From: Lysobacterales bacterium
GTDB lineage: Bacteria > Pseudomonadota > Gammaproteobacteria > Xanthomonadales > UBA2363
Direction of reading: 5' to 3'
NCBI GenBank assembly: GCA_019634735.1
Contig: JAHCAT010000001.1
Location: 593,227 to 633,226 of the forward strand
DNA length: 40,000 nt
This document shows, piece by piece, positions 13,945 through 34,304 of this stretch. The notes under the pieces are model-generated. The model was not told the origin of the DNA. It saw only the letters and a program-made list of their open reading frames with translations, and did not search any database. The number at the start of each line of letters is the position of its first letter. Within the stretch, counting starts at the first letter, position 1. The translations under genes and the position numbers were made by a program.

Positions 13945-13967
13945 GGGGCGGCGTCCTCGATGAATGC

Positions 13968-14330: not shown

Positions 14331-14412
14331 GACTTTCCTGGTGGCCTGACGCTCGCATCAGGCCGCCCGGCGACACCGCAGCATGAACGCAGGCTTGGAC
14401 GTTGACGAAGGA

Positions 14413-15293: not shown

Positions 15294-15592
15294 GGTCGAT
15301 CCTCCAGCCGGTCGAAGAGAGCCTTGGCGCGCCTGATGTCCCTGGCCTGCGTGGACTTGTCGCCAGCGCAAAGCAGGATGTAGACGATCTCGCCCCGCCG
15401 GGCGAAGTACACGCGATAGCCGGGGCCCGTGTGGATCCGCATTTCCCAAATGCCTTGGCCGACAGGCTCGCAGTCGCCCAGGTTTCCGGCCTCGGCCGAG
15501 CGGATGCGCGCCGCGATGCGCGCCTTGCCCCGGGGGTCCTTAAGCGCCTTCAGCCATGCGTCGAATTCGACGGTCCGAAGGAAGGCGTTCAT
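15290..15592 (-). CDS. addiction-module killer protein (RelE/HigB-superfamily toxin)
   Basis: ORF trimmed to MNAFLRTVEFDAWLKALKDPRGKARIAARIRSAEAGNLGDCEPVGQGIWEMRIHTGPGYRVYFARRGEIVYILLCAGDKSTQ. The toxin lies upstream of the antitoxin, which is the HigBA order. Confidence 0.8.
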   Translation of the reverse strand: MNAFLRTVEFDAWLKALKDPRGKARIAARIRSAEAGNLGDCEPVGQGIWEMRIHTGPGYRVYFARRGEIVYILLCAGDKSTQARDIRRAKALFDRLEDRP

Positions 15593-15841
15593 GGCCGAAC
15601 CGTATCCGAACGGATACAGTCGCGTCAATCAGTTCGTTACACCGCCCTTCACTGCCAAACCTGGCCTCCCTCCCGTTCTTCGCCGGAAGCAGGCGCCGTT
15701 GATCCGATGCGGAACGCGGGTCGCGGCCCGAAACAACCAACCCGTGCCAGCTCGTGCCGCCGGCGCGAAGGCACCCACCTCCGGCAACCGCATCCACGCG
15801 AAGCACCAGCCGGTAGATGCAGCGCCCCTGAGCAGGCTCGC

Positions 15842-15927
15842 GAAACCGGGGTCCGAAACCGGGGTCAGGGTGCACTTTTCGAGCGCCGCTGCTTCGGAAA
15901 CTCGACTCTGACCCCGGTTTTCAGAAC
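15842..15927. repeat. REP-like repeat R2 with inverted partial copies (potential stem-loop)
   Basis: GAAACCGGGGTC occurs twice (15842-15853 and 15855-15866), inverted relative to CTGACCCCGGTTTT (15908-15921). The core TCGACTCTGACCCCGGTT is at 15902-15919. The OMP stop codon (15921-15923) lies inside it. Confidence 0.75.
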
Positions 15928-16850: not shown

Positions 16851-17459
16851 TTGCCAGATGGAAAACAGGGCCACTACAGCACCCGGCTGTGGCGCAGCAC
16901 CCGCCGCTTCCTGTTCCGCGCCGGCAACCTGACCCGGGTGTTTCGCGCCAGGGTGCTGGCCGCCCTGCGGGCCCTGGGCCTGACCCTGCCCGACCCGCTG
17001 CCCGACACCTGGGTGGCCGACTGCACCCGGGTCGGCCGCGGCGAACAGGCCCTGGCCTACCTCGCCCGCTACCTCTACCGCGGCGTGCTCAGCGAACGCG
17101 ACCTGCTCGGCTGCGACGACCAGCGTGTCCGCTTCCGCTACCGCGACAGCACCGGCCAGACCCGCATCCGCTGCCTGCCCGGCGCCGGGTTCCTGGCCCT
17201 GCTGCTCCAGCATGTCCTGCCCAAGGGCTTCCGCCGCGTGCGCGACTTCGGCCTGCTGCACCCCAGGCGCAAGGCCCTGCTGGCACGCGTGCAACTGCTG
17301 CTGCAGGTCCACCTGCCCGACCTGCCCGCACCGGCCCGCTGCCGCCTCCTGTGCCCGCACTGCGGCGAACCCATGCGCATCGTCGCCACCCGCCTGACAC
17401 CGGCGCAGGCGCACCGACGACGAACCCCGCACCACGACCACCGGAGCCGTGCCATGTGA
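16851..17459 (+). pseudogene. IS91-family (Y2/rolling-circle) transposase, C-terminal fragment only
   Basis: The fragment contains FLFRAGNLTRVFRARVLAALRA, WVADCTRVGRGEQALAYLARYLYRG (the Y-x-x-x-Y motif), FLALLLQHVLPKGFRRVRDFGLL and a terminal CPHCG. The N-terminal zinc-finger and HUH part is absent, and the frame opens only with a TTG. Confidence 0.7.
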
Positions 17460-17689: not shown

Positions 17690-17746
17690 TGTTCAACAAC
17701 CGGATCAGATCGCGGCTGCGCGCGATCTATCCTTTGCCGTTAGGTG
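17690..17746 (-). repeat. attC of cassette 10 (short class, last site of the array)
   Basis: Read on the minus strand it is ACCTAAC ... AGATCGCG/CGCGATCT hairpin ... GTTGAAC. The cassette-10 TAA stop lies in the inverse core. Confidence 0.6.
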
Positions 17747-18066
17747 CGTGCCGTACCGAAGCGGGCAGCAGCGAGTCCGAGCGAGCCGGCGCCCACCAGA
17801 AGCGCGATGTGGAGGATGGGGACAACATTCCCATGCACTACTTCGGGAAGCACGCCCGTGTAGGCGACTTCGCTAGAGCTCAAGGCATAAGTCATCGGAA
17901 AGGCGGACATGACACCCGAACCCACCGCGAAGACTGCGAATAGACCAAGAGCGACGAGCGCGCTGTGCCTACGCGAAACGCGCCAAAGCGAGTAGGCGGA
18001 CCACGCAAGGAGGGCGCCGGTCGCGACCGGAATCCACGGGAAGATGAGACTCGCGATTTCGTTCAT
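17740..18066 (-). CDS. cassette 10: small integral membrane protein
   Basis: The start is MNEIASLIFPWIPVATGALLAW... (ATG at 18064-18066; an alternative GTG at 18078 overlaps the attC core). It has 3-4 TM helices. Confidence 0.65.
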   Translation of the reverse strand: MNEIASLIFPWIPVATGALLAWSAYSLWRVSRRHSALVALGLFAVFAVGSGVMSAFPMTYALSSSEVAYTGVLPEVVHGNVVPILHIALLVGAGSLGLAAARFGTART

Positions 18067-18076
18067 GGCAGTCAGC

Positions 18077-18140
18077 ACCTAACGTTTGAGCTCAGGCCGC
18101 GGCCCGTCAGGGCCGTCGCGCCTGCAGCGAATGGTTATGT
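18077..18140 (-). repeat. attC of cassette 9 (short class)
   Basis: Read on the minus strand it is ACATAAC cattc GCTGCAGGCGCG ... GCGGCCTGAGCTC aaac GTTAGGT. Confidence 0.7.
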
Positions 18141-18301
18141 CCTTCCTCCTCGCATTCATTCCAATGGAAATATCCATCTGAAGTGACGGAAAAATTCTCA
18201 GAGGGCCTCTTCCTTAGCGGCACTTCTGGATCGAATCTCAGAAGCCCTGGCAATAGAGACGACCGCTCAAGGTACTTGGAGTTCTTTTTGTTCTTCTTCA
18301 T
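18107..18301 (-). CDS. cassette 9, possible third gene: 64-aa basic peptide
   Basis: The ATG lies 2 nt after the kinase stop (TAGAAATG). The N-terminus is MKKNKKNSKYLERSS, and the ORF runs into the attC. It would fill an otherwise unexplained 164-nt gap between the kinase stop and the attC. Support is weak. Confidence 0.3.
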   Translation of the reverse strand: MKKNKKNSKYLERSSLLPGLLRFDPEVPLRKRPSENFSVTSDGYFHWNECEEEGHNHSLQARRP

Positions 18302-18303
18302 TT

Positions 18304-19362
18304 CTAGTTTTCCCGGAGGAATTTCTTAATTTCGGCCCTACCTAGACTTGCGGTGCAGTACTCGGTGATTCTCCTCTTTGTGCCATCTTTTGAGAGAACA
18401 AATGCTTCCGATGATTGGTCGTCATTTAGTACGAGATTTACCTCTTTGCCGTTATCCAATTCTTTTACCCAGCGCCGGAACCCAGTGCCATACTCCATGC
18501 GCCAATCCAGCAAGGCCTCTTCAATATCCGAAACAGCATTAACAACTTCTATGGCTGATGTAAAGCGCTGAGCAAGATCAGTCTGCAAGCACTTGCGAAT
18601 TGCGTTCACAAATTTCTGAGGGATGTGCTCCGGATACTGATTTCGACTAGGAAATTGGCCGTTACGCACAGCGACCTTGAATGCATTCCTTTCTAGAGTT
18701 CCGTTCCTGACAAACCCGCTGTACTCGCCATAGAAGTGAGCATCGCCTACGCTCATTCGATGCATAGTCAGACCCATCTGATATATATCGAACTGCCGGG
18801 TAAAATCCTGATTTTGAAAAGCCTCAGGAGGAACCATTTTTCCGTAGATTCGGTCTTGCCCTGCAACACCAGAATAGGACGTTTGCTTTGCGAGCCCAAA
18901 ATCCGACAGCATCGCTTCCCCCCTCTCAGAAAGGAGAATGTTGTCTGGCTTTACGTCAAAGTGAATTAGCCCTTTTGAATGTATGTTGTGAATTCCACTC
19001 AACACTTGAGTGGACACCACTATCATTTCTCTGACGGTTAGGGGTCTGCTAGCCATTCGAGCCTTTAAGGAACCCTTGCCATACAGAGGCATTGCCAAAT
19101 AGACATGATCTACGTCATGGCAAGCGTAGTGAATTGGAACCACATTAGGATGCGCGCTCAGATATAAGAGGCTTGCCTCGACAAAGTACTCATCTATGTC
19201 AGTAAACGTAGTCTTTTTCACCTTCTTGACGACTATTTCCGCATTTAGCTGCAGATCCCTCGCCTTGAATACTTGCGAGTTCCTGCCTTCTGACCCGATC
19301 TCATCACCGAGTTGAAAACTTAATTCGGCGGTATTTGGAGGCTTAAGCATTGGTGGCTCCAA
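18304..19362 (-). CDS. cassette 9: Hanks-type (eukaryotic-like) Ser/Thr protein kinase with an uncharacterised C-terminal domain
   Basis: The motifs are the G-loop IGSEGRNSQVF, lysine IVVKKV, catalytic loop HFDVKPDNILL (non-RD), SDFGLAK, PPE, DIYQMGLT and late QRFTSA. About 65-85 C-terminal residues have no motif. The ORF overlaps the upstream gene by 20 nt. Confidence 0.85.
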   Translation of the reverse strand: MEPPMLKPPNTAELSFQLGDEIGSEGRNSQVFKARDLQLNAEIVVKKVKKTTFTDIDEYFVEASLLYLSAHPNVVPIHYACHDVDHVYLAMPLYGKGSLKARMASRPLTVREMIVVSTQVLSGIHNIHSKGLIHFDVKPDNILLSERGEAMLSDFGLAKQTSYSGVAGQDRIYGKMVPPEAFQNQDFTRQFDIYQMGLTMHRMSVGDAHFYGEYSGFVRNGTLERNAFKVAVRNGQFPSRNQYPEHIPQKFVNAIRKCLQTDLAQRFTSAIEVVNAVSDIEEALLDWRMEYGTGFRRWVKELDNGKEVNLVLNDDQSSEAFVLSKDGTKRRITEYCTASLGRAEIKKFLREN

Positions 19363-19801
19363 TTGCAGCCATTACTGCCTCTCGCTGCTCTTTAGTAAGG
19401 TCAGCCCAACTATCTACGCAATCCATTGATAGTTCGCCTTCCGCGTAGCGCTTGAAGTCTTTTCTGGCAATTCCCATCCTCGCAGACAAACTGGATATCT
19501 GCCCGCAAAGATACGAGCTCAATCCACTGCTGGCGAATGCCTCTTGCACTACACCTTCAATTTCAACTCTGCGGACTGGCACTGTTTGCGCGTTGCTTTC
19601 AATAATTCGTATTGCGGCCTTTTTTATCTCGTACTCCCTAAGCACATCGAGAACATTGTTCCTGACGTATTTCAGCGCCTCTGGAACAGACAGAGCGTTG
19701 GGAATGCGAATTTCCTCTACGTTGAGTATTTTTTCCACAGAGGCGTCATAAACTGCGATTGTTATCGCGTTCGGCCTCGCTCTTATGCCCATCGTGTTCA
19801 C
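19343..19801 (-). CDS. cassette 9: 152-aa protein, possible RNase-H-like fold (DUF3010-like), no intact acidic catalytic set
   Basis: The GTG start at 19801 is preceded by GGAGGA (complement of 19808-19813). The predicted beta-beta-beta-alpha-beta-alpha order (GIRARPNAITIAVYD..KILNVEEIRIP..ALKYVRNNVLDVL..AAIRIIES..) is my inference only. Confidence 0.7.
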   Translation of the reverse strand: MNTMGIRARPNAITIAVYDASVEKILNVEEIRIPNALSVPEALKYVRNNVLDVLREYEIKKAAIRIIESNAQTVPVRRVEIEGVVQEAFASSGLSSYLCGQISSLSARMGIARKDFKRYAEGELSMDCVDSWADLTKEQREAVMAAIGATNA

Positions 19802-19819
19802 TCTGTGTCCTCCAGAAGG

Positions 19820-19908
19820 ACATAACGATTGAGTTGAGCGGCGCGCACGCCGGTGTATGAGCTTGGCACTTTATCCCTCACGCGTCCGCTCGAACGAGTT
19901 GTTAGGCA
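19820..19908 (-). repeat. attC of cassette 8 (class A, about 88 bp)
   Basis: The plus strand reads cataacgattgagttgagcggcgcgc...cgcgtccgctcgaacgagttgttaggc. It is roughly 90% identical by eye to the site at 22189-22277. Confidence 0.8.
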
Positions 19909-20327
19909 TCACGCCACTCCACAACAAGCTGGCTGGCGGGCTCAGCAAGCCAGACCTTGATTCTCCGACCAAGCTCATTGATGTCCGCCGGATTGCAACG
20001 AAGAGAAAAGGCGCTGGTTGCGCGATTTGGTTCCGCGCCTCGAACTTCCATTAGAACCTCAAGCGCCGAATGACCGGTGCCGTTAAGGACGTGGGCGCGA
20101 AGCCGCATGTGTCCAAACCACTTCGGGTCGGGACCACCGGATTCCCATACCACCTCGTCCTTCGGGCTAGCCGGAAAGTTCTCAAGGCCTGAGGCAAACG
20201 TCAGGAGATCGGCCGGGTAAGCGTACAGCTCCATTCGGGCCGACGTGCGCTCGTTCGAGGCGCCGACATCTAGCTGCAGCATGCCGTCATCGTCTCTCCA
20301 AATGCCCTTGAGGTCCACGCGCGACAT
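19902..20327 (-). CDS. cassette 8: hypothetical protein (141 aa)
   Basis: The ORF fills the cassette. Its TAA stop lies in the attC inverse core. I recognise no family. Confidence 0.7.
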   Translation of the reverse strand: MSRVDLKGIWRDDDGMLQLDVGASNERTSARMELYAYPADLLTFASGLENFPASPKDEVVWESGGPDPKWFGHMRLRAHVLNGTGHSALEVLMEVRGAEPNRATSAFSLRCNPADINELGRRIKVWLAEPASQLVVEWRDA

Positions 20328-20336
20328 TGATCGTGA

Positions 20337-20427
20337 TGCCTAACGCCGTGCTAACCGGCCGCGGGCCGATAGTGGTTGGTTTGAACGTAACACATCCCCG
20401 CAGGTCCGGTTGAGCACATAGTTAGAT
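20337..20427 (-). repeat. attC of cassette 7 (class B, about 90 bp)
   Basis: The plus strand reads gcctaacgccgtgctaaccggccgcgggcc ... caggtccggttgagcacatagttaga. Confidence 0.8.
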
Positions 20428-20428
20428 T

Positions 20429-21148
20429 TCACCGCCGAGACGTGGCTGCGGCAATGTGGAGTACTGGCCCTTCTAGGGAGAACTCCTGGGCCACTGCCTC
20501 CGCATCGCCCCACATGGACATAGGTGTACCGTGGTCACACTGGCATATGGATGCGAGGACGTCGCCCACGCCAGTGTTCCTGATCTGAAGGAGGCTATCG
20601 AGCTCGCCTTGGGTCCAAGGAGAACGAGACGCGGACCTGCTACTGTCGAACTGAGCCGTTTCATCGTGCCAAGTACAGGATGATCCTTCGCTTTGGAGGT
20701 GGGCCGCCTGCTGACCGAAGGGCAACTCACAATAGAACATCTCAAAGATTGCGAAGCGAGGCCAGAACCGCGCTTGCCGAGTGAGCTGATCGGAGAAATG
20801 CGAAAGGCCCGAGGCTGTTTGCGCATAGTCCCACCGGTACATGCTGGTGCCAAAGCGGGGCAGCTTTGCCTCGAACATTGCGATCTTGATGTGGCCGTTG
20901 GAAGAAATGAGGATTGTTGCGTCACATCCAGTACGCTGTTCAATTCTCGGCTGCAGCACGAAGCTCGTCGCCGAGAGGCCCGTGGAGCTATTGCTGTTTA
21001 TGATTCTTCGGAGCGCGCCGGTGAAGTTTGAAGTGTAATCGTCCTCTCCGGAAATATAGCCAAGGGAAAGATCGCTGCGCGCTTCTTTGTCAGCAACGGA
21101 GGCGAAGTTGCAGAGCTCTGCTATCTGCTGAGGTGGCATGGACAACAC
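20429..21148 (-). CDS. cassette 7: putative PD-(D/E)xK nuclease-fold protein
   Basis: The motif context is TGCDATILISSNGHIKIAMFEAKLP, that is Asp on one strand and E-x-K on the next. The GTG start at 21148 follows GGAGG by 7 nt; an alternative ATG is at 21139. Confidence 0.7.
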   Translation of the reverse strand: MLSMPPQQIAELCNFASVADKEARSDLSLGYISGEDDYTSNFTGALRRIINSNSSTGLSATSFVLQPRIEQRTGCDATILISSNGHIKIAMFEAKLPRFGTSMYRWDYAQTASGLSHFSDQLTRQARFWPRFAIFEMFYCELPFGQQAAHLQSEGSSCTWHDETAQFDSSRSASRSPWTQGELDSLLQIRNTGVGDVLASICQCDHGTPMSMWGDAEAVAQEFSLEGPVLHIAAATSRR

Positions 21149-21166
21149 TAGGAAGCCTCCAGTGAG

Positions 21167-21256
21167 ATCTAACGCCGTGTTAACCGGCCTGCGGCCGACA
21201 GTGATCGGTTCATTCGAACTACCTCCCAGCAGGTCCGGTTGAACACATAGTTAGAC
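21167..21256 (-). repeat. attC of cassette 6 (class B)
   Basis: The plus strand reads tctaacgccgtgttaaccggcctgcggccga ... caggtccggttgaacacatagttaga. Confidence 0.8.
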
Positions 21257-21257
21257 C

Positions 21258-21629
21258 TCACCACCGCGCGCCAAGGTACTTCTTCAGGTGTTCTCGGACT
21301 GGCGTGGAAGCATGATCAAACCAGACTCCATTGAGCAGCAGTCGAAACTGCGGGCTTCTACGTGCGTGGGTTTCGATCTCGCTCAACAATTCGATGCCGT
21401 GAAATGCGATGAGATCCTCAAGCGGTCCCGCGGCTAGTACCTGAAAGTGCCGGCTTGTGGTGTCAGCCGGTATCCTGCCAAGAACTTCAACTATCGCCTC
21501 CAGCGCCAGACGCGGATCGATTCCAGGCAACGAGTCGTCCAAGTCATTCTCAGTCGGCTCGTGCGCCTCCGGAGGCTTACGCCACTTCTCAATCCACGCG
21601 ATGGCAATGGACTCCGCGGATGAGTTCAT
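21258..21629 (-). CDS. cassette 6: hypothetical protein (123 aa)
   Basis: The ORF fills the cassette and looks helical (LALEAIVEVLGRIP...AAGPLEDLIAFHGIELLSEIE). I cannot name a family with confidence. Confidence 0.7.
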   Translation of the reverse strand: MNSSAESIAIAWIEKWRKPPEAHEPTENDLDDSLPGIDPRLALEAIVEVLGRIPADTTSRHFQVLAAGPLEDLIAFHGIELLSEIETHARRSPQFRLLLNGVWFDHASTPVREHLKKYLGARW

Positions 21630-21634
21630 GTGAG

Positions 21635-21724
21635 GTCTAACGCCGGGCTAACCCGCCGCCGGCCGACAGCGGTCCGTTGACACGCAATGGCTCTCCGGCG
21701 GTCGGGTTGAGCACATAGTTATGC
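21635..21724 (-). repeat. attC of cassette 5 (class B)
   Basis: The plus strand reads tctaacgccgggctaacccgccgccggccga ... cggtcgggttgagcacatagttatg. Confidence 0.8.
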
Positions 21725-22192
21725 GTCGTCGCCTGGACGCTCATGGGGATACTCTCGAATCCGCTGGACTGCCTCCCGCTCACGGTCCTCATAGAACGGC
21801 CCTAGCGGGAACGACCCGTTGATGTGAGTGACCCAGTTGTGGTCCGAGTCAAGGTAGAACACGTAGTAGAAGCCGGCGAGCAATCCCAAACTGCAGTTGC
21901 CCGGACCGAAGACAAGATCACGAACCTTGCCACGACGCTCGGGGGAACCCTTCAGGCTTTCAGCAAGTTCGTATCTTGCCTCGACATACTCGCAGTCGTC
22001 GTCATCGAGATCTTCGACTTCGCACTCTCGACCCCGCAGTCGCTTAAGCTGGGTCGAGACGACCTTTGCAACAAAGACGTGTGATGCCTCGTCGAACAAC
22101 TGCGCATCAGTTGGACGATGGAGACGAGAGCAAGCATCCGCTGGTGGGGCCACGAGTGCTAGCACGATGCCGAATGCGAGACTAAGACGCAT
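21719..22192 (-). CDS. cassette 5: secreted protein with a TIMP/NTR-like N-terminus
   Basis: The signal peptide is MRLSLAFGIVLALVAPPADA. The mature N-terminus CSRLHRPTDAQLFDEASHVFVAKVVS resembles TIMP [25 protein letters not shown]. The ATG lies inside the preceding core site (GTTATG). Confidence 0.7.
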   Translation of the reverse strand: MRLSLAFGIVLALVAPPADACSRLHRPTDAQLFDEASHVFVAKVVSTQLKRLRGRECEVEDLDDDDCEYVEARYELAESLKGSPERRGKVRDLVFGPGNCSLGLLAGFYYVFYLDSDHNWVTHINGSFPLGPFYEDREREAVQRIREYPHERPGDDA

Positions 22193-22277
22193 AACGGTGG
22201 AGTTGAGCGGCGCGCGCGCCGATGTATGAGCTTGGCACTTTATTTCTCACGCGTCCGCTCGAACGATTTGTTAGGCC
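22189..22277 (-). repeat. attC of cassette 4 (class A)
   Basis: The plus strand reads cataacggtggagttgagcggcgcgcgcgcc...cgcgtccgctcgaacgatttgttaggc. Confidence 0.8.
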
Positions 22278-22912
22278 GCGACACGCTTTCGTAGCCATTG
22301 CACCATTTCCATGTGGCCGGGACCGACCAGGCCTAAAGCCCGGTGATGTTTAAGACCAGATTCCGTTTGCGATGCCGCCTCAAGAGCCGCATAGGCATTC
22401 CTCACCGCCTCGGGCGCTTGGCCACGCGCATCAGCGATAACGGCTCGCGCCGCCGAGGCTTTGAAACGCGAGACAGGAAACGGGCCGGTATCGTCAGGCA
22501 ACAACTCTATGGCTTCATCATAAAGGTCACTGCGGCGAAGGGATGCGATAAGCCACGGAAACTCCACGGCAACCCCACAATCAAGGTTCGGCGCCTGCCT
22601 GTTCGCTCTGAGTGATGCCCGGTAGTGCTCGAAGGCTTGCTCCGGCTGCTTCAGTAGCACGTGGCACTCGGCGGCTTGCGCATGCGCCTGCGTTTGCTCG
22701 TAGGGATCTGAGAACTCTTCTAGATGCTGCTCTAGCAGTTGCAGCGCGACGCGCACCAAACTCTCTTTTCCCGTCGATGCTAACTCAACCGCCTGGATCC
22801 TTAGATACTGGGCGCGATTGCCTGATCCTCTGGATTTTGCGAGGCGAGCGAAGAATGCCTCCGCGATCGCTGGAGACCACGTGTGGTTCCGAAACCAGTC
22901 GTCTCGCGCCAT
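22271..22912 (-). CDS. cassette 4: all-helical repeat (TPR-like) protein
   Basis: The 213-aa ORF has repeated helix pairs (AQYLRIQAVELASTGK, AHAQAAECHVLLKQPEQAFEHYRASL, ...). I verified the translation codon by codon against the sequence. Confidence 0.75.
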   Translation of the reverse strand: MARDDWFRNHTWSPAIAEAFFARLAKSRGSGNRAQYLRIQAVELASTGKESLVRVALQLLEQHLEEFSDPYEQTQAHAQAAECHVLLKQPEQAFEHYRASLRANRQAPNLDCGVAVEFPWLIASLRRSDLYDEAIELLPDDTGPFPVSRFKASAARAVIADARGQAPEAVRNAYAALEAASQTESGLKHHRALGLVGPGHMEMVQWLRKRVAA

Positions 22913-22923
22913 GGGTTCCGAGC

Positions 22924-23015
22924 GGCCTAACGCCGCGTTAAGCGGCCGCGGGCCAACGCAACATCAGAAAACACCATGGCCTGTCACCGCGGTCCGCTTG
23001 AACGCATAGTTAGAA
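22924..23015 (-). repeat. attC of cassette 3 (class B)
   Basis: The plus strand reads gcctaacgccgcgttaagcggccgcgggcc ... cgcggtccgcttgaacgcatagttaga. Confidence 0.8.
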
Positions 23016-23016
23016 C

Positions 23017-23943
23017 TCACGTCTCGCGACATTGCGCCGCTTCCTCCTCGGTGAACTCGACATCCTCAATTCTCAAAAGGCCGCTCGCAATCGCAGGCTC
23101 GAAATGCTGAAAGAAGCGATTTCGATCGAATGATCCCCACGTGCCGCGCCCCTCCTCACCAGGGATTTTAAGCATGACGAGATCGAGGTGAGCTTCGACG
23201 TTCTTAGCTACTCGGTAATGATGAATCTTCGAGAGCATCACATACAGACGGTCGCGATAGATTGGATTGACTAGGCGCTCAGGCCGAATGTCGATGAACG
23301 TCTCACGCTCTGAGCTCTTGATGTAGCCATCGAATATTGGCTGGATGTTGCTGACCGGATCAATTCCCTGAAACTGAAACGACAGCTTGGCATCGGTGAT
23401 AACGTTGGATGGGTTTATTTCCCGGCGCTTGAGAAGCTTAGTGAGCGCGATCTCCTCGGCTTTCTCCCAGTTCATGCGCGTGCGAGCCGGGGTATCTGCA
23501 GCGGTAGCCGAAAGTGCACGATTCTCGGTGCTGTTCTTCTCTTCAACCTCCGCTTCTGACGCCCTTTGGACCGTCGGTGACGAAGCATAGTAGTCACCCT
23601 GTACGGTAGTGCTGCTTTGGCGCTGAGCCTGAGAGTTGCTGACGGTGATGAGCTGCGAAAGCAGGTAGGAATTCTGCTTTTCAAGCCTCTCGACCTCGGC
23701 CTCCTTCTTTCGCACTTCACGACTGACAGACAGAAGCTTGCCGACGGAAAAATTGTCAAATGCCTCTGCAAGCACGAGTACAACCAGCAATCCAAGTAGG
23801 GACAGCAATCCCGGCGAAATCTCGCCGACAGGCTGCACTTGGAGAAATCGGAACAGAATCATGCCCGCAATGAGAAGACACAGTAGCGCGATTAGGATTC
23901 TGACGAAGAGATTGGCGCCAGCGTGTTGGCTACGTTCCGCCAT
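23017..23943 (-). CDS. cassette 3: membrane-anchored coiled-coil protein with an unknown C-terminal globular domain
   Basis: It has two N-terminal TM helices (LFVRILIALLCLLIAGMILF and LLSLLGLLVVLVLAEAF), a coiled-coil segment (REVRKKEAEVERLEKQNSYLLSQL), a low-complexity linker and a C-terminal domain of about 150 aa. Confidence 0.75.
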   Translation of the reverse strand: MAERSQHAGANLFVRILIALLCLLIAGMILFRFLQVQPVGEISPGLLSLLGLLVVLVLAEAFDNFSVGKLLSVSREVRKKEAEVERLEKQNSYLLSQLITVSNSQAQRQSSTTVQGDYYASSPTVQRASEAEVEEKNSTENRALSATAADTPARTRMNWEKAEEIALTKLLKRREINPSNVITDAKLSFQFQGIDPVSNIQPIFDGYIKSSERETFIDIRPERLVNPIYRDRLYVMLSKIHHYRVAKNVEAHLDLVMLKIPGEEGRGTWGSFDRNRFFQHFEPAIASGLLRIEDVEFTEEEAAQCRET

Positions 23944-23959
23944 GTGCTACCCCTGTGAG

Positions 23960-24052
23960 TGCTAACGCCGTGTTCAGCGGCCGCGCGGCCGCAGGGCAAT
24001 GGTAGATCGACACGGCCTAATCCGCGCGGTTCGCTGCAACACATAGTTAGCT
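23960..24052 (-). repeat. attC of cassette 2 (class B)
   Basis: The plus strand reads gctaacgccgtgttcagcggccgcgcggcc ... cgcgcggttcgctgcaacacatagttagc. Confidence 0.8.
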
Positions 24053-24655
24053 GTCTTTAACACCAGATGCGATTCCGTGACCTTGTGTTCGCGGGTCGCC
24101 CGCATGCATCGCCTCCCACCAACGGATGCCGCCAGCGACAAAATGGTCCGGGTCGATCGTGTTCCCTTGGGCATCACAAATCACCAGCTCCTCAAACCAG
24201 ACCCACAAATCGAGATGTCGATTTGCCGTGACCCCTTCCTGGAACAGCGCCAAGAGGTTAGTTCGCGCTCCCGCGTCCGACTGTATGTCGAGCGATAGGC
24301 GATGCTTCCACAGCTCCCACGCTTGATCTTCGTGGTTGATGAACTCCCAGCCGTAGATTGGCTGCCCACCAAAGGACTGCACAGTTGAGAGTAGATCGGA
24401 TGCTTCTAGCGGCAAAGGCTTCGCAGCGTAATCGTCCCACCTGCTATCTCGCAGCGCAGCAGCGACGCGGCCAACCTCTTTGAGAATGAGCTGGCGCCTC
24501 GGGTCAGCCGACTCTGGCGAGTGGTCGTCGGGCAGGGTTAGCACGGAAATTGTTACGCCAACCATCTGGCGGACGCGGTCATACTCGACACCCAGAAGCG
24601 AGGCTTCGTTGAGGGCTGTGCCGAGTTCCTTGGCTCGATGCTCGTCAATACGCAT
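24047..24655 (-). CDS. cassette 2: hypothetical protein (202 aa)
   Basis: The ORF fills the cassette. Its TAA stop lies in the attC inverse core. It is Trp-rich, and I recognise no family. Confidence 0.7.
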   Translation of the reverse strand: MRIDEHRAKELGTALNEASLLGVEYDRVRQMVGVTISVLTLPDDHSPESADPRRQLILKEVGRVAAALRDSRWDDYAAKPLPLEASDLLSTVQSFGGQPIYGWEFINHEDQAWELWKHRLSLDIQSDAGARTNLLALFQEGVTANRHLDLWVWFEELVICDAQGNTIDPDHFVAGGIRWWEAMHAGDPRTQGHGIASGVKDS

Positions 24656-24662
24656 TGAAGAC

Positions 24663-24722
24663 AGCTAACGCCTGAATTAAGCCGCGCCGCGAAGCGGCGT
24701 CGGCTTGAATGAATTGTTAGCG
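24663..24722 (-). repeat. attC of cassette 1 (short class, about 58 bp)
   Basis: The plus strand reads gctaacgcctgaattaagccgcgccgcgaagcggcgtcggcttgaatgaattgttagc, a GC-rich central hairpin between the cores. Confidence 0.75.
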
Positions 24723-25172
24723 CTCACTGGACAGCTCCACAAGCTGCTTACCGACGAGCCACTGGTCTATTGCTTCCGGCGCAGTGAGCACCTGAAGTCG
24801 ATAGAACGACTTAGAACAGCACAATAGAGTGCGATTGGCATTCGGGTGCGTGATTAGGACTCCCTCGGTGGATACGCAAGTTGCGGAATCTCCAAAGTGA
24901 TCCTCAAACTCAACCAGGTGAACTGCGTTTTCTTGCTCGGCTTGCAGAGCTTCGGGCGCAGCGGCGCCCAAGTTCAGCTCGGCCTCGATGCGCTCGCACT
25001 CAAACATTGGTTCTTTCTCGACAACGTATGTGCTCACAAGTACAGCTTGGCCAGACTCCAGCAGTACAACTGCACGGCCGGAGCCAAAGCCGACGCATGC
25101 TGCCCAAGGTCGTTCCAAATTTCGCAGGACGGCACGGGTTGACTTGGATGCTAGAAACCGATGGAGCTTCAT
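24717..25172 (-). CDS. cassette 1: hypothetical protein (151 aa)
   Basis: This is the first ORF after attI. Its ATG lies 7 nt from the GTTAGC junction. I recognise no family. Confidence 0.7.
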   Translation of the reverse strand: MKLHRFLASKSTRAVLRNLERPWAACVGFGSGRAVVLLESGQAVLVSTYVVEKEPMFECERIEAELNLGAAAPEALQAEQENAVHLVEFEDHFGDSATCVSTEGVLITHPNANRTLLCCSKSFYRLQVLTAPEAIDQWLVGKQLVELSSER

Positions 25173-25178
25173 GTGAGC

Positions 25179-25250
25179 GCTAACTTGATGTATGCGCCGG
25201 ATGCGGCGGATAAGGGGGAGTGTTCAGGGTTCGGGCGGGGCCGTCAATAG
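25179..25250 (-). other. attI region (recombination junction GTTAGC at 25179-25184), with a candidate Pc promoter
   Basis: The plus-strand gctaac at 25179-25184 is the attI/cassette-1 junction. On the minus strand, TTGACG (25242-25247), a 17-nt spacer and AACACT (25219-25224) form a weak sigma-70-like candidate. The extent of attI is not determinable by eye. Confidence 0.5.
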
Positions 25251-25344
25251 GAAATTTCCCACCTCGATACAGTGCTTTGGCTGACGACATGGGGGGTGCC
25301 AGTGGTCCAGGCTGCACCCGGATATCCATGCAAGGTGCTGGGGT

Positions 25345-26391
25345 ATGGCTTCTCGTGGCGGAACTGCCGGGGTATGCGGGCGCGGGCCGATGGCGCCGGA
25401 GGCGCGCAAACCCCGCCTGTTCGACGAAGTTCGCCGCTGCTTGCGGGTGCGGCACTACAGTCTGGCGACCGAGAAGTGCTACCTGCAATGGCTGCGCCGG
25501 TTCATCCTGGCCAACGGCAAGCGCCATCCCCGGGAGCTGGGCAAGGCCGAGGTCGAGGCCTTCCTGTCCGGCCTGGCGGTCGCGGGCAAGGTGGCGCCAA
25601 GCACCCAGAACCAGGCGCTGGCGGCGCTGCTGTTCGTTTACCGGCATGTGCTGGAACTGGATCTGCCCTGGCTGGACGGCGTGGTGCGGGCGCGCAGCCG
25701 GCAGCGGGTGCCGACGGTGCTGGCGCGCAGCGAGGTCGGGGCGCTGCTGCTGGCGATGGACGGCCGACCGTGGCTGCTGGCCAGCCTGCTCTACGGCACC
25801 GGCATGCGGCTGATGGAGTGCCTGCGCCTACGGATCAAGGACGTCGACTTTGCCCGCCACGAGATCACGGTGCGCCAGGGCAAGGGCGGCAAGGACCGGC
25901 ACACCGTGCTGCCGGCCACGCTGGTGCCGGCCCTGCACCTGGAAGTCCAGCGCGCGCTGCGCCTGCATGGCCACGACCTGGCGCGCGGGCTGGGCGAGGC
26001 AGCCCTGCCGCACGCGCTGGCGCGCAAATACCTTGGCGCCGCTCGCGAACCCGGTTGGCAGTTCGTGTTTCCCTCCGCCCGGCTGTCGCGCGATCCGCTC
26101 GACGGCACGCTGCGCCGCCACCATGTCGACGCCGCGGTTCTGGCGCGGGCCCTGCGCAAGGCCTGTCGCGCCGCCAACCTCGTCAAGCACGTCAGCGCGC
26201 ACACGCTTCGGCACAGCTTTGCCACCCACCTGCTCGAGGATGGCTACGACATCCGCACCGTGCAGGAGCTGCTTGGCCACAGCGATGTGGGCACCACCCA
26301 GATCTACACGCACGTGCTCAACCGGGGCGGGCGCGGGGTGGTGAGCCCACTGGATCGCACCAGCAGGCCTCTTTCACATTCGTCGGCTTGA
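25345..26391 (+). CDS. intI: integron integrase IntI (tyrosine recombinase)
   Basis: Conserved segments are KPRLFDEVRRCLRVRHYSLATEKCYLQWLRRFI, GTGMRLMECLRLRIKDVDF, the IntI-specific insert [52 protein letters not shown] and TQIYTHV. It is full length with no frameshift. An alternative start is at 25390 (MAPEARKPRL). Confidence 0.9.
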   Translation: MASRGGTAGVCGRGPMAPEARKPRLFDEVRRCLRVRHYSLATEKCYLQWLRRFILANGKRHPRELGKAEVEAFLSGLAVAGKVAPSTQNQALAALLFVYRHVLELDLPWLDGVVRARSRQRVPTVLARSEVGALLLAMDGRPWLLASLLYGTGMRLMECLRLRIKDVDFARHEITVRQGKGGKDRHTVLPATLVPALHLEVQRALRLHGHDLARGLGEAALPHALARKYLGAAREPGWQFVFPSARLSRDPLDGTLRRHHVDAAVLARALRKACRAANLVKHVSAHTLRHSFATHLLEDGYDIRTVQELLGHSDVGTTQIYTHVLNRGGRGVVSPLDRTSRPLSHSSA

Positions 26392-26422: not shown

Positions 26423-26710
26423 ATGTGGATCGTCATGGAGCGCCCTCAAGCCGACAAGGTCCTGTCATCCGGTCGCGTGCCGATCGACATTCTGAAGCGC
26501 TACGAAAAGTGGAAGGACATTGCGATGCTCTCGGGGCCGCAGGGGCTGCGAGCCATCAGGGGTTTCCGGGACGAAGCCCTGTTGGGCGAGTGGCGGGGCT
26601 TCCGCTCCTCCCGCCTCAACGAGAAGTGGCGGGTGATCTACGGCGTTCAGGCCGAAGTGCTTGTCGTCGAAGTGGTCAGGCTCGCCGCGCATGACTACCG
26701 GAGGAAGTGA
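26423..26710 (+). CDS. RelE/HigB-superfamily toxin
   Basis: The 95-aa ORF contains FRDEALLGEWRGFRSSRLNEKWRVIYGVQAEVLVVEVVRLAAHDY, typical of RelE/HigB-type mRNA interferases. A perfect TTGACA (26388-26393) overlaps the intI stop, and TATATG is at 26415-26420. An alternative start is at 26435. Confidence 0.75.
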   Translation: MWIVMERPQADKVLSSGRVPIDILKRYEKWKDIAMLSGPQGLRAIRGFRDEALLGEWRGFRSSRLNEKWRVIYGVQAEVLVVEVVRLAAHDYRRK

Positions 26711-26711
26711 T

Positions 26712-26966
26712 ATGGCCAGATTGATTCCTGCAAGACGCCGCGTCGAGGTCACACCAGGTGAGTCGCTGCGGATCATCCGGGAACTTCAGGAGCTCAGCCA
26801 GACACAACTGTCGGCGTTGTGCGGCATTCCACAAACCACGATCTCGAGCATCGAGAACGGCCGGGTGAACCTGGGGGTGGAACGCGCCAAGGTGCTGGCC
26901 AGGGCGTTGCGCTGCCATCCGGCGGTGCTGGTGTTCCCCGGGTGGCAGGTGGATTCTGCTGCTTGA
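26712..26966 (+). CDS. XRE-family HTH antitoxin (HigA-like)
   Basis: ORF 26661..26966 trimmed to the ATG at 26712, which is 1 nt after the toxin stop. The HTH is LSQTQLSALCGIPQTTISSIENGRVNLGVERAKVLARAL. Confidence 0.75.
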   Translation: MARLIPARRRVEVTPGESLRIIRELQELSQTQLSALCGIPQTTISSIENGRVNLGVERAKVLARALRCHPAVLVFPGWQVDSAA

Positions 26967-27067
26967 GGGTGCTTGCGCTATTGGCGTCAGAGCACGCTTT
27001 CCCCGTGGCAGCTCCGGCAAGCGCGGTGGACCACGGTGCAAAACGTGGTCTGACCCCTGGCGGCTAA

Positions 27068-27211
27068 GACATCCGCACGGTGCAGGAACTGCTCGGCCAC
27101 GCCGACGCGTCGCCCACGCAGATCTACACGCATGTGCTCGATCGCGGCGGGCGCGGGGTGCGCAGTCCGCTGGACGGGGTGTCCCCGATGCCCTCGGTCC
27201 CAGCCTGTTGA
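27068..27211 (+). pseudogene. relic 3-prime end of a second integron integrase gene
   Basis: It translates to [37 protein letters not shown]..., parallel to [37 protein letters not shown] at the end of the intact intI. It is preceded in frame by TAA, and no upstream integrase sequence is present. Confidence 0.8.

Positions 27212-31914: not shown

Positions 31915-34304
<2,390 letters not shown>

What the first reader, a model, noticed from the sequence alone, without database searches (positions are those of the whole stretch)
17690..26391. Complete, apparently functional integron with ten cassettes of unknown function
- IntI (25345-26391) is full length. It has the tyrosine-recombinase boxes and the IntI-specific insertion (ALPHALARKYLGAAREPGWQFVFPS).
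- The attI junction GTTAGC (complement of 25179-25184) lies upstream of intI on the opposite strand, as expected.
- Ten ORF units follow on the minus strand, each closed by an imperfect palindrome with RYYYAAC/GTTRRRY cores.
- The array is lower in GC than the flanks.
- I could not assign a named product to any cassette. None is a familiar antibiotic-resistance gene.

Chromosomal integrons in Xanthomonas-like bacteria often have decayed intI genes (established knowledge, from memory). An intact one with a diverse array is a good place to look for new adaptive or defence functions.
Basis: partly seen in the sequence, partly recalled or inferred. Interest (0 to 1): 0.7.

Follow-up and report, generated by a model that had tools for sequence, protein, structure and literature searches.

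The report
Intact chromosomal integron with defence-like cassettes
This is a genuine, sequence-intact chromosomal integron in an uncultured Xanthomonadales bacterium: an ordinary example of a well-known gene-capture system whose cassettes include a phage-derived kinase module that probably defends against phages.

Summary
The intI gene (25345-26391, +) scores 453.6 bits on the integron-integrase model TIGR02249 (cutoff 265). It keeps every catalytic residue and the IntI-specific patch.

Nine of the ten proposed attC sites are canonical:
- A covariance model built only from attC sites of other genomes finds all nine, on the expected strand, with E from 5e-18 to 8e-9. It finds nothing else in the 40 kb.
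- The tenth site, a terminal hairpin next to an IS91 transposase fragment, fails the model.

Two cassettes are shown to be discrete mobile units. Cassettes 1 and 9 recur in other metagenomic arrays, and the shared sequence ends at or within about 16 nt of the G|TT crossovers. In this window cassette 1 is joined directly to attI, which records a past attI x attC insertion.

"Unknown function" needs correcting for some cassettes:
- Cassette 9 carries the RuvC-like plus Stk kinase pair of Stx phage 933W/24B, where Stk is a phage-exclusion kinase. It also matches PD-T4-6.
- Cassette 3 has a nuclease-like fold.
- Cassette 7 has a nuclease-like motif.
- Cassette 6 is DUF6869.

Also found: attC1 is the 60-nt type seen in clinical aadA and fosE cassettes. 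An orphan copy of the intI 3' end lies beyond a toxin-antitoxin pair downstream of intI.

Verdict: a new member of a known kind, of moderate to low interest.

The parts
25345..26391 (+). intI, an integron integrase of 348 aa. The ATG at 25345 is conserved in relatives. Catalytic residues are R155, K180, H286, R289, H312 and Y321. The IntI patch keeps W238, P251, H259 and H260.
   Evidence: TIGR02249 453.6 bits against a cutoff of 265. Pfam Phage_integrase plus Phage_int_SAM_4. Aligns over residues 28-338 to VchIntIA 2a3v, E 1.3e-85. Residues checked. ATG invariant in alignment A3. GC 0.706 and GC3 0.87, the same as the host.
25185..25344 (.). The intI-attI intergenic region. On the minus strand it holds a candidate Pc: TTGACG (25247-25242), 17 nt, AACACT (25224-25219). 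It also holds a conserved palindrome GGAAATTTCC and a small hairpin next to the crossover.
   Evidence: TTGAC is invariant in five related integrons. A relaxed promoter scan finds the candidate. The strict scan finds nothing, and no LexA box is present. Promoter function is inferred only.
25178..25184 (-). attI crossover core GTTAGCG, with recombination between G25184 and T25183.
   Evidence: Homology of cassette 1 to its copies in L082 and L084 begins exactly at this GTT. Upstream of it, the window carries attI sequence and the other loci carry a preceding attC. The CTAAC core is conserved in L001, L003 and L004.
24669..25183 (-). Cassette 1 (515 bp). ORF 24717-25172 (151 aa, a near-orphan). 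attC1 24663-24722 (60 nt, the aadA/fosE type).
   Evidence: attC1 scores 80.3 bits, E 5e-18 with R2. It was not in the training set of R1, which scores it 44.9 bits. More than 5000 plasmids match at 80-99%, including aadA6 and fosE cassettes. Only two relatives exist among 5.8 billion proteins. The same cassette sits in other arrays, with two compensatory changes in the attC stem.
23966..24668 (-). Cassette 2. ORF 24047-24655 (202 aa, a widespread uncharacterised family). attC2 23960-24052.
   Evidence: R2 46.1 bits, E 2e-9. 386 representative clusters at E <= 0.001. No Pfam, NCBIfam, PADLOC or PDB match.
22931..23965 (-). Cassette 3. ORF 23017-23943 (308 aa): two N-terminal hydrophobic helices (probably membrane-spanning), a long helix that may form a coiled coil, and a C-terminal PD-(D/E)xK-like domain. 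attC3 22925-23015.
   Evidence: R2 61.4 bits. 257 homologues, all unnamed. AF2 model with the C-terminal domain at pLDDT above 90. The top PDB fold hits are mostly nucleases of this fold: BstEII at 1.5e-3, then Card1, AF1548, cap-snatching endonucleases, XisH and XPF.
22195..22930 (-). Cassette 4. ORF 22271-22912 (213 aa, weak TPR-like signal). attC4 22189-22276, which is closely similar to attC8.
   Evidence: R2 55.0 bits. TPR_12 E 0.004, below the Pfam cutoff. Members of the same 90% cluster occur on other metagenome contigs.
21641..22194 (-). Cassette 5. ORF 21719-22192 (157 aa, with a signal-peptide or lipoprotein-like N-terminus). attC5 21635-21724.
   Evidence: R2 50.7 bits. Sequence read. 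No family match.
21173..21640 (-). Cassette 6. ORF 21258-21629 (123 aa, DUF6869). attC6 21167-21256.
   Evidence: R2 56.3 bits. PF21746 DUF6869, E 1e-17, 64.3 bits against a cutoff of 30.
20344..21172 (-). Cassette 7. ORF 20429-21148 (239 aa, candidate PD-(D/E)xK nuclease of an undescribed family). attC7 20338-20427.
   Evidence: R2 47.7 bits. 142 homologues, all unnamed. D76, E93 and K95 are invariant. AF2 model pLDDT 92.4, with those residues on adjacent strands. No significant fold match.
19826..20343 (-). Cassette 8. ORF 19902-20327 (141 aa, unknown). attC8 19820-19907.
   Evidence: R2 54.2 bits. No family match.
18083..19825 (-). Cassette 9 (1743 bp, GC 0.48) with three genes. (a) RuvC-like protein 19343-19801 (152 aa). 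(b) Stk-type protein kinase 18304-19362, probably starting at the ATG at 19350; key residues are K46, D136, N141 and D154 of the DFG motif. (c) Small ORF 18107-18301 (64 aa). attC9 18077-18140.
   Evidence: phrog_3875 E 3e-35 and phrog_2361 E 2e-67. PADLOC mad6 2e-51 and PD-T4-6 2.5e-37. Identity to phage 24B res is 36% (E 9e-35) and to Stk 38% (E 3e-82) over full length, with the same gene order and overlap. attC9 scores 44.1 bits, E 8e-9. The same cassette is 94% identical in another array, L086.
17694..18082 (-). Terminal unit 10. ORF 17740-18078 (112 aa, a small hydrophobic, probably membrane, protein, GC 0.62), followed by hairpin 17694-17745. It is not a canonical attC and may be degenerate or truncated.
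   Evidence: The ORF starts right after the R' core of attC9. The hairpin scores only 13.8 bits, E 0.36, on the wrong strand, and 9.5 bits with R1. Weak DUF998 hit, E 8e-5, below the Pfam cutoff.
16851..17459 (+). IS91-family (Y2_Tnp) transposase fragment lacking its N-terminus. It abuts the distal end of the array.
   Evidence: PF04986 E 1e-25, profile positions 34-178 of 183.
26423..26966 (+). Toxin-antitoxin-like pair directly downstream of intI: a RelE/HigB/YafQ-like gene 26423-26710 and an XRE-type HTH gene 26661-26966. GC 0.62.
   Evidence: HTH_3 E 1e-14. YafQ_toxin weak, E 1e-3. Homologous pairs (59-70% aa identity) form the first cassette of L073 and lie just 3' of intI in L059.
27062..27211 (+). 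Orphan copy of the last ~50 codons of an intI. It runs from the G300 codon, has TAA in place of the Y301 codon, and has its own C-terminal tail.
   Evidence: 113-nt direct repeat of 26242-26354, 81% identity, spacing 820 nt. Alignment. tblastn E 1e-13. Translation.

Best explanation
The locus is a complete sedentary chromosomal integron in an uncultured Xanthomonadales bacterium (contig of 633 kb).

**Expected mechanism.** IntI is a tyrosine recombinase with the integron-specific extra domain. It recombines folded single-stranded attC sites. The folding (bottom) strand here is the window's + strand, which is also the intI coding strand.
- attI x attC recombination inserts cassettes at G25184|T25183.
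- attC x attC recombination excises them.
- A promoter in the 160-bp intI-attI spacer reads into the array, so the cassettes nearest attI are best expressed.

**Array content.** The array holds nine canonical cassettes and one terminal unit with a degenerate end beside an IS91 remnant. All are compositionally foreign. At least one cassette, number 9, is a phage-derived module that most likely gives abortive-infection-type phage exclusion. Its Stk-type kinase would be activated on infection, as in phage 933W. Cassettes 3 and 7 are candidate nuclease effectors.

**Shown:**
- identity and intactness of IntI;
- the structure, strand and covariation of the attC sites;
- cassette boundaries and the mobility of cassettes 1 and 9;
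- homology of cassette 9 to res-stk.

**Inferred:**
- present-day recombinase activity;
- the position of Pc;
- any defence phenotype.
For: **IntI**
- TIGR02249 453.6 bits against a cutoff of 265.
- Full-length alignment to VchIntIA, E 1e-85, with all catalytic residues and the residues that bind extrahelical bases conserved.

**attC sites**
- Bottom-strand folds show R-box pairing, an unpaired spacer and a stem with T and G bulges in sites 1 and 3-8.
- Nine base pairs carry compensatory changes. No shuffle out of 500 reaches the observed covariation.
- Model R1, trained on sites 2-8, recovers the untrained sites 1 and 9.
- In 80 other intI loci R1 gives 220 hits. Of these, 206 are on the intI strand, and all 206 lie upstream of intI.
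- Model R2 was built from 149 attCs of other genomes. It finds sites 1-9 at E 5e-18 to 8e-9 with a strong strand bias, and nothing else in the 40 kb.
- attC1 is 80-99% identical to attCs in more than 5000 plasmids, for example those of aadA6 and fosE cassettes.

**Cassette mobility**
- Cassette 1 recurs in L082 and L084. Homology starts at G|TTAGC and ends at GTTAG|, and the attC stem carries two compensatory changes.
- Cassette 9 recurs in L086 at 94% identity, between different attCs.

**Composition**
- Cassettes 0.48-0.62 GC. intI and the flanks 0.70.

**Cassette 9**
-.
- 933W Stk is activated on HK97 infection and takes part in phage exclusion (PMC3681748).
- Integron cassettes are an established reservoir of defence systems (bioRxiv 10.1101/2024.07.02.601719, and the references listed in PMC12444791).
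Against: - No experiment shows that IntI is expressed or active now.
- No strong sigma-70 promoter and no LexA box were found between intI and attI, so regulation is unknown.
- The tenth attC fails the model.
- Model R2 is not fully independent. Its training sites were collected with R1, which was trained on this window.
- Cassette 9 lies ninth in the array, with only 24 nt between its 5' boundary and its first start codon. Its expression would depend on read-through.
- The RuvC-like partner lacks the first catalytic Asp of RuvC, as read by eye against the RuvC motif recalled from memory. Its role is therefore unclear.
- The fold evidence for cassette 3 is weak (best E 1.5e-3). For cassette 7 it is not significant.
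Confidence: 0.92

Rival explanations
1. The platform is intact in sequence but is now a frozen, inactive integron. IntI would be unexpressed or too weak, and the array would be inherited vertically without turnover.
For: - No consensus promoter or LexA box lies between intI and attI.
- None of the cassettes is shared with 80 related integron loci, so no recent exchange is visible.
- The intI 3' end has a history of rearrangement.
Against: - All catalytic and attC-binding residues are kept, and there is no frameshift.
- Cassette 1 is joined precisely to attI, and its relatives elsewhere are 87% identical in protein. This points to an insertion that is not ancient.
- Cassette 9 is 94% identical to a copy in another array.
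- The attC sites keep their pairing through compensatory changes.
Confidence: 0.2
2. The array really ends at attC9. Unit 10 (17694-18082) would not be a cassette but flanking DNA, or a cassette whose attC was destroyed by the IS91-family insertion.
For: - The hairpin at 17694-17745 scores 13.8 bits, E 0.36, on the wrong strand.
- Unit 10 has a higher GC (0.62) than the other cassettes.
- The IS91 Y2_Tnp fragment begins about 235 bp away.
Against: - The ORF starts immediately after the GTTAGGT core of attC9, as the other cassette ORFs do.
- The unit's GC is still well below the flank value of 0.70.
- The hairpin is flanked by TAAC and GTTG.
Confidence: 0.45
3. It is a mobile integron, carried on a transposon, plasmid or integrative element, rather than a sedentary chromosomal one.
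For: - attC1 is the type common in clinical class 1 cassettes.
- An IS91-family fragment and toxin-antitoxin genes lie next to the integron.
Against: - The contig is 633,605 bp.
- intI has the host's GC and GC3.
- IntI falls below the cutoff of the class 1 equivalog model, 325 bits against 435.
- The nearest IntI proteins are chromosomal ones from Lysobacterales at about 70% identity.
- The flanks carry ordinary genes for NhaC, SNF, NUDIX and an outer-membrane protein. No transposition (Tn402-type) genes were seen among the flanking ORFs scanned.
Confidence: 0.04
4. The repeats are REP-like or terminator palindromes next to an ordinary XerC/D-type recombinase, not an integron.
For: Xer models also match the protein, but far below their cutoffs.
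Against: - TIGR02249 is well above its cutoff and the IntI-specific insertion is present.
- The repeats match attCs of other integrons, are strand-specific and sit one per gene.
- One repeat is near-identical to validated clinical attCs.
Confidence: 0.01

Closest known systems
Sedentary chromosomal integrons of Xanthomonas and other Lysobacterales (PMC12444791)
   Same: - The same order of bacteria.
- intI divergent from a unidirectional cassette array.
- Mixed 60-nt and ~90-nt attC types.
- Most cassettes without a known function.
- IntI 63% identical to that of X. campestris pv. asclepiadis and about 70% to those of Luteimonas and Dokdonella.
   Different: - It is not next to ilvD, the conserved Xanthomonas position. 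The neighbours scanned are a TA pair, NUDIX and NhaC.
- intI is full length, whereas many Xanthomonas species carry truncated genes.
- An orphan intI 3' end lies downstream.
Vibrio cholerae superintegron and VchIntIA (PDB 2a3v)
   Same: - IntI aligns over its whole length, E 1e-85.
- The catalytic R-K-H-R-H-Y set is conserved, as are W219, P232, H240 and H241, which hold the extrahelical bases.
- The attC sites fold with T and G bulges on the bottom strand.
   Different: - The array is small (10 units against about 180), and the attCs are heterogeneous rather than uniform VCRs.
- W157 of VchIntIA is Arg here, as I recall it is in IntI1 (recalled, not tested).
Class 1 mobile integron cassettes (aadA and fosE type attC)
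   Same: attC1 is 92-98% identical to the 60-nt attC of the best-matching cassettes, such as aadA6 and fosE, and 80-99% identical across more than 5000 plasmids.
   Different: - IntI is not IntI1. The NF011946 model gives 325 bits, below its 435 cutoff.
- No resistance gene is present.
- No Tn402 backbone or 3' conserved segment was seen.
res-stk module of Stx phages 933W/24B (Stk phage-exclusion kinase) and the PD-T4-6 defence kinases
   Same: - Full-length homology of both proteins (36% and 38% identity).
- The same gene order, with overlapping stop and start codons and a small ORF 3 nt after stk.
- The kinase catalytic motifs are intact.
- PADLOC PD-T4-6 models match at E 2.5e-37.
   Different: - The module is carried as an integron cassette bounded by attC sites, not in a prophage immunity operon under pRM.
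- The small third ORFs are unrelated.
- The host is a Xanthomonadales bacterium, not E. coli.
- No phenotype has been tested.
Integron-borne anti-phage cassettes (BRiCs; Kieffer 2025, Darracq 2025, Getz 2025)
   Same: A compact defence-like module, with one to three genes, packaged as a cassette. The homologous module also exists outside integrons without attC sites, here in phages.
   Different: One full-text search for PD-T4-6 together with integron returned one unrelated paper, so no Stk-type cassette came to light. That is only a limited search. Function is predicted, not shown.

Membership tests
Integron (complete) | intI encodes a tyrosine recombinase of the IntI clade, with the integron-specific additional domain and the catalytic RKHRHY residues. 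| tested here: met
   TIGR02249 453.6 bits against 265. Alignment to 2a3v. R155, K180, H286, R289, H312, Y321, W238, P251, H259 and H260 all present.
Integron (complete) | Cluster of attC sites with the R''-L''/L'-R' imperfect palindrome and extrahelical bases, all in one orientation, one per cassette. | tested here: met
   Nine sites at E 5e-18 to 8e-9 with model R2, all on the + strand. Folds. Covariation. The tenth site is not met. IntegronFinder's own attC model was not available.
Integron (complete) | attI site next to intI, at which the first cassette is joined at G|TT. | tested here: met
   The boundary of cassette 1 was mapped to G25184|T25183 by comparison with L082 and L084. The core is conserved in relatives.
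Integron (complete) | Pc promoter directing transcription of the cassettes. | tested here: inconclusive
   Only a weak candidate, TTGACG-17-AACACT, whose -35 box is invariant in five integrons. The strict scan is negative. This needs 5' RACE or RNA-seq.
Integron (complete) | IntI-catalysed cassette excision and insertion. | not testable with these tools
   The evidence is indirect only: precise cassette boundaries, and the same cassettes in different arrays.
Sedentary chromosomal integron (as opposed to mobile) | Chromosomal location, no linkage to transposition or conjugation functions, and intI adapted to the host's composition. | tested here: met
   633-kb contig. intI GC3 0.87, like host genes. 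Ordinary genes in the flanks. Only an IS91 fragment nearby.
Class 1 integron | IntI1 equivalog. | tested here: not met
   NF011946 gives 325.1 bits, below its 435 cutoff.
933W-type Stk phage-exclusion module / PD-T4-6 | Eukaryote-like protein kinase homologous over its full length, with an intact catalytic Lys, HxD...N loop and DFG motif. | tested here: met
   38% identity over 348 aa, E 3e-82. K46, D136, N141 and D154 present. PD-T4-6 models match at E 2.5e-37.
933W-type Stk phage-exclusion module / PD-T4-6 | Conserved upstream RuvC-like partner gene in the same operon. | tested here: met
   36% identity, E 9e-35, same order, overlapping genes.
933W-type Stk phage-exclusion module / PD-T4-6 | Kinase activation on infection, with abortive infection or exclusion of phage. 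| not testable with these tools
   Known for 933W Stk (PMC3681748). No data exist for this cassette.
PD-(D/E)xK nuclease superfamily (cassettes 3 and 7) | An alpha-beta-beta-beta-alpha-beta core, with an acidic residue at the start of strand 2 and (D/E)xK on strand 3. | tested here: inconclusive
   Cassette 7 has invariant D76, E93 and K95 on adjacent strands of a model with pLDDT 92, but no significant fold match. Cassette 3 has fold hits mostly to nucleases of this superfamily, but with E of 1.5e-3 or worse, and Arg where the Lys is expected.

The most novel reading that the evidence does not exclude
The array may work as a small anti-phage defence library. Cassette 9 would be the first documented case of the 933W-type RuvC-like/Stk abortive-infection module turned into a mobile integron cassette. 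It already occurs in at least two arrays. Cassettes 3 and 7 would be effectors of two undescribed defence families: cassette 3 a probably membrane-anchored nuclease-fold protein with a long helix, and cassette 7 a compact protein with a D...ExK motif. Separately, the 820-bp segment (replacement intI 3' end plus toxin-antitoxin pair) inserted ahead of an orphan intI 3' end might mark an element that targets intI while repairing it.
Probability: 0.3. Interest if true: 0.55.

Novelty: new member of a known kind. Interest (0 to 1): 0.35.

Why it matters
- It adds a fully intact integron platform from an uncultured, high-GC Xanthomonadales lineage. intI is often decayed in this group.
- Its first attC is of the same type as those of clinical aadA and fosE cassettes. 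This fits the existing view, recalled from memory and not checked here, that Xanthomonadales integrons feed cassettes to mobile class 1 integrons.
- It gives concrete, clonable candidates for phage-defence screening: the Stk module and two nuclease-like families. Integron cassettes have recently been shown to be rich in defence systems.
- None of this changes how integrons are understood.

Tried and rejected
- **Rfam.** It holds no matching family, and there were no hits in the window. I therefore built attC models myself.
- **Promoters and operators.** Strict promoter and terminator scans of the attI region and of the whole array found nothing above shuffled expectation. No E. coli-type or Xanthomonas-type LexA box lies near intI.
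- **Family searches.** Pfam, NCBIfam, PADLOC and PHROGs gave nothing above family cutoffs for cassettes 1, 2, 3, 4, 5, 7 and 8.
- **Structure searches.**
  - Profile searches of PDB sequences for cassettes 2, 3 and 7 found nothing.
  - Fold searches for cassette 7 against PDB and viral models were not significant.
- **Shared cassettes.** No window cassette recurs in the 80 related intI loci.
- **Left flank.** I looked for a decayed continuation of the array at 13.0-15.7 kb, where small co-oriented genes sit at lower GC. No attC-like structure was found. The weak R1 hit at 14773-14863 is spurious.
- **Small third ORF of cassette 9.** It has no similarity to the small ORF after stk in phage 24B.
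- **Which intI 3' end is native.** Comparison with relatives did not decide it.
- **Inverted repeat around the TA pair.** The 13-nt repeat is at chance level by my estimate.

Full report
**What is there.** The window is about 70% GC. Between roughly 17.7 and 25.2 kb the GC drops to 0.48-0.62. At the right edge of this trough lies an uninterrupted 348-codon ORF, 25345-26391 on the + strand. Its own composition (GC 0.706, GC3 0.87) matches the host. On the minus strand, starting 160 bp from its ATG, run ten gene-bearing units, each followed by an imperfect palindrome. Exact protein look-ups place the sequence on a 633,605-bp contig of a metagenome-assembled 'Xanthomonadales bacterium' (locus tags KF823_0264x-02675). 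All the cassette genes found there are annotated as hypothetical.

**The integrase.**
- The protein scores 453.6 bits on NCBIfam TIGR02249 'integron integrase' (cutoff 265). It stays below the cutoffs of the IntI1 equivalog (325 against 435) and of every Xer model.
- It aligns over residues 28-338 to residues 8-319 of VchIntIA, the only solved integron integrase (2a3v), with E 1.3e-85.
- Reading that alignment against the published VchIntIA residues, which I recalled from memory and whose positions I checked in the alignment, the catalytic set is complete: R155, K180, H286, R289, H312 and Y321. The residues that hold the extrahelical attC bases are also present: W238, P251, H259 and H260.
- The ATG at 25345 is invariant in an alignment with the upstream regions of the four closest integrons. 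The long form of the ORF is therefore probably the real one.
- The closest IntI proteins in one-genome-per-species GTDB are only about 70% identical. They come from a Gammaproteobacteria MAG, Dokdonella, Luteimonas vadosa and a Rhodanobacteraceae MAG. X. campestris pv. asclepiadis is at 63%.

**The attC sites.** Rfam has no matching attC family, and IntegronFinder's model was not available. I tested the sites in four ways.
1. *Folding.* The bottom strands (the window's + strand) of sites 1-9 fold into the canonical shape. There is a paired R box (TAAC/GTTA), a short unpaired spacer, and a stem with two single-base bulges on the 3' arm. The bulges are T and G in sites 1 and 3-8.
2. *Covariation.* In an alignment of sites 2-8, 89.7% of cells pair. 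Nine pairs carry changes on both sides. No shuffle out of 500 reaches the observed covariation, and sliding the partner column collapses pairing to about 30-39%.
3. *A model trained on the window.* A covariance model of sites 2-8 (R1) recovers the two sites it was not trained on: site 1 at 44.9 bits, E 9e-11, and site 9 at 28 bits, E 8e-6. In 1 Mb around 80 other intI genes it gives 220 hits at E <= 0.01. Of these, 206 are on the intI strand, and by my reading of the table every one of them lies upstream of intI. The 14 opposite-strand hits fall in three loci: L020 has them upstream of intI in a block facing its intI-strand sites, and in L078 and L064 the array is on the other side of intI.
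4. *A model trained elsewhere.* A second model (R2), built only from 149 of those foreign sites, finds window sites 1-9 at 44-80 bits (E 5e-18 to 8e-9). The opposite strand scores 12-24 bits. Nothing else in the 40 kb has E below 0.3. R2 is not fully independent, because its members were collected with R1.

Site 1 also has wholly independent support. It is 80-99% identical to the 60-nt attC found in more than 5000 plasmids, for example at aadA6 and fosE cassettes.

The tenth palindrome (17694-17745) fails. It scores 13.8 bits, E 0.36, on the wrong strand.

**Cassette boundaries and past activity.**
- *Cassette 1.* Its protein has only two relatives among 5.8 billion sequences. The 87%-identical one lies on metagenome contigs that are themselves cassette arrays, with R2 hits of 55-78 bits. 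In the three-way DNA alignment, similarity starts exactly at G|TTAGCGCTCAC and stops at GGCGTTAG|. Upstream of that point the window has its attI sequence, while the other contigs have the end of a different attC. Within the attC, two stem positions differ by compensatory double changes. This is the footprint of an attI x attC insertion at G25184|T25183.
- *Cassette 9.* It recurs at 94% nucleotide identity over 1765 bp in a separate metagenome contig (L086). It is bounded there by other attC sites and followed by a different cassette.

These cassettes are therefore discrete mobile units. The integron has been active in the evolutionary past. Whether it is active today cannot be decided here.

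**Regulatory region.**
- A strict sigma-70 scan finds nothing between intI and attI. No LexA box of either the E. coli or the Xanthomonas type is present.
- A relaxed scan gives TTGACG-17-AACACT on the cassette strand, at 25247-25219. Its TTGAC is invariant in all five aligned integrons. I treat this as a candidate Pc only.

**Cassette contents.** No resistance gene or other NCBIfam family matches above its cutoff.
- *Cassette 9* (1743 bp, GC 0.48) is not of unknown function.
  - Its first gene matches phrog_3875 'RuvC-like' at E 3e-35. Its second matches phrog_2361 'serine-threonine kinase' at E 2e-67.
  - The kinase also matches PADLOC mad6 and many PD-T4-6 models, the best at E 2.5e-37.
  - Both proteins are homologous over their full length to the adjacent res and stk genes of Stx phages (933W/24B group): 36% identity at E 9e-35, and 38% at E 3e-82. 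The gene order is the same, the stop and start codons overlap, and a small ORF begins 3 nt after the kinase stop. The small ORFs themselves are unrelated.
  - In these phages the genes lie downstream of cI in the pRM transcript (PMC3430580). 933W Stk is a eukaryote-like kinase that is activated on HK97 infection and takes part in phage exclusion (PMC3681748; PMC6356687).
  - The cassette kinase keeps the catalytic Lys, the HxD...N loop and the DFG motif.
  - The RuvC-like partner has Arg where, as I recall the RuvC motif, RuvC has its first catalytic Asp. The phage protein does too. It is probably not a nuclease.
- *Cassette 3* encodes two N-terminal hydrophobic helices, a long helix and a confidently modelled C-terminal domain. 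The best PDB fold matches of that domain are mostly PD-(D/E)xK nucleases, but they are weak (best E 1.5e-3).
- *Cassette 7* gives a model at pLDDT 92 with invariant D76, E93 and K95 on neighbouring strands. It has no significant structural neighbour.
- *Cassette 6* is DUF6869, and *cassette 4* is weakly TPR-like.
- *Cassette 5* has a signal-peptide-like start, and *unit 10* is a small hydrophobic protein.
- *Cassette 2* belongs to a family with 386 representative clusters and no annotation.

**Edges.**
- *Distal edge.* Unit 10 ends about 235 bp from a fragment of an IS91-family transposase that lacks its N-terminus (16851-17459). That insertion may have destroyed or truncated the last attC.
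- *Proximal edge.* intI is followed after 31 nt by a RelE/HigB-like plus HTH pair (26423-26966, GC 0.62). About 95 nt further on comes an orphan copy of the last ~50 codons of an intI (27062-27211). It is 81% identical over 113 nt to 26242-26354, and its Y301 codon is TAA.
- *Simplest reading of the proximal edge.* An 820-bp segment carrying a replacement intI 3' end plus the TA pair entered an older intI. The alternative, a remnant of a second integrase gene, is not excluded.
- *The TA family elsewhere.* The same TA family is the first cassette of an integron in a Methylomirabilis MAG (L073). In a Sulfuriflexus MAG (L059) it sits just 3' of intI.
- *Genomic position.* The integron is not beside ilvD, the conserved position in Xanthomonas (PMC12444791). 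The neighbours scanned are NUDIX, NhaC and SNF transporter genes.

**Comparison and verdict.** All testable defining features of a complete integron are met except a demonstrated Pc. It is a sedentary chromosomal integron and not class 1. Such elements are common and are routinely found by IntegronFinder. Integron cassettes are already established as reservoirs of anti-phage systems (bioRxiv 10.1101/2024.07.02.601719, and the references listed in PMC12444791). The locus is therefore a new member of a known kind. Its added value is:
- an intact platform in a lineage where intI is often decayed;
- an Stk-type phage-exclusion module travelling as a cassette (one limited full-text search for PD-T4-6 with integron found no such report);
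- two candidate nuclease families;
- the odd duplicated intI 3' end.

Interest is 0.35.

Noticed in passing
window 27062-27211 (+), with 26242-26354: An orphan copy of the last ~50 codons of an intI gene. It is 81% identical over 113 nt to the intact gene's 3' end and has TAA at the Y301 codon. It lies 820 nt downstream of its counterpart, beyond a toxin-antitoxin pair. This suggests an insertion that brought a replacement intI 3' end, or else a remnant of a second integrase gene.
   Followed up: partly
window 26423-26966 (+); L073 1435-1969; L059 1231-1765: A RelE/HigB-like plus HTH pair sits directly 3' of intI, outside the array. Homologous pairs (59-70% aa identity) form the first cassette of a Methylomirabilis MAG integron. 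In a Sulfuriflexus MAG the pair lies just 3' of intI.
   Followed up: partly
window 24663-24722: attC1 is 80-99% identical to the 60-nt attC found in more than 5000 plasmids, for example at aadA6 and fosE cassettes. This links the environmental Xanthomonadales array to the cassette pool of clinical class 1 integrons.
   Followed up: partly
window 19343-19801 (-): The RuvC-like partner of the Stk kinase has Arg (GIRA) where, as I recall the motif, RuvC has its first catalytic Asp (GIDP). The phage 24B 'res' protein has the same change. It is probably a non-catalytic RNase H-fold protein, perhaps a sensor or regulator.
   Followed up: no
window 13032-15628 (-): A run of small co-oriented genes at GC 0.64-0.66 with no attC sites. 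It comprises a second TA pair (Gp49/HigB-like toxin and HI1420-type antidote), DUF3024, a HIT-family gene and an ABM-family gene. A DUF3024 gene also sits just upstream of res-stk in phage 24B.
   Followed up: partly
window ~15905-15925 and ~14978-14998 (-): The 21-nt motif GA(A/G)AACCGGGGTCAGAGTCGA occurs immediately after the stop codons of the outer-membrane protein gene and of the antidote gene. It may be a REP-like element.
   Followed up: no
window 25250-25275 (+); L001, L003: The palindrome GGAAATTTCC lies between the candidate Pc -35 box and the intI start and is conserved in related integrons. It may be a regulator binding site. A small hairpin next to the attI core keeps its pairing through different sequences in the relatives.
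   Followed up: no
L078 11646-13276; L064 16530-18426; L020 677-6904: In the Pyrinomonadaceae and Eisenbacteria MAG loci the attC hits lie downstream of intI on the other strand, which is the inverted-intI arrangement. L020 has two facing blocks of attC sites.
   Followed up: no
window 16851-17459 (+); L034 3-347: An IS91-family Y2 transposase fragment lies at the distal end of the array. A 47%-identical IS91-like ORF lies at the distal end of the array in a Methyloversatilis MAG.
   Followed up: no
window 31915-34932 (-): A large host protein kinase with TPR repeats (1005-aa ORF) lies about 5.5 kb from the integron. It is unrelated to the cassette kinase.
   Followed up: no
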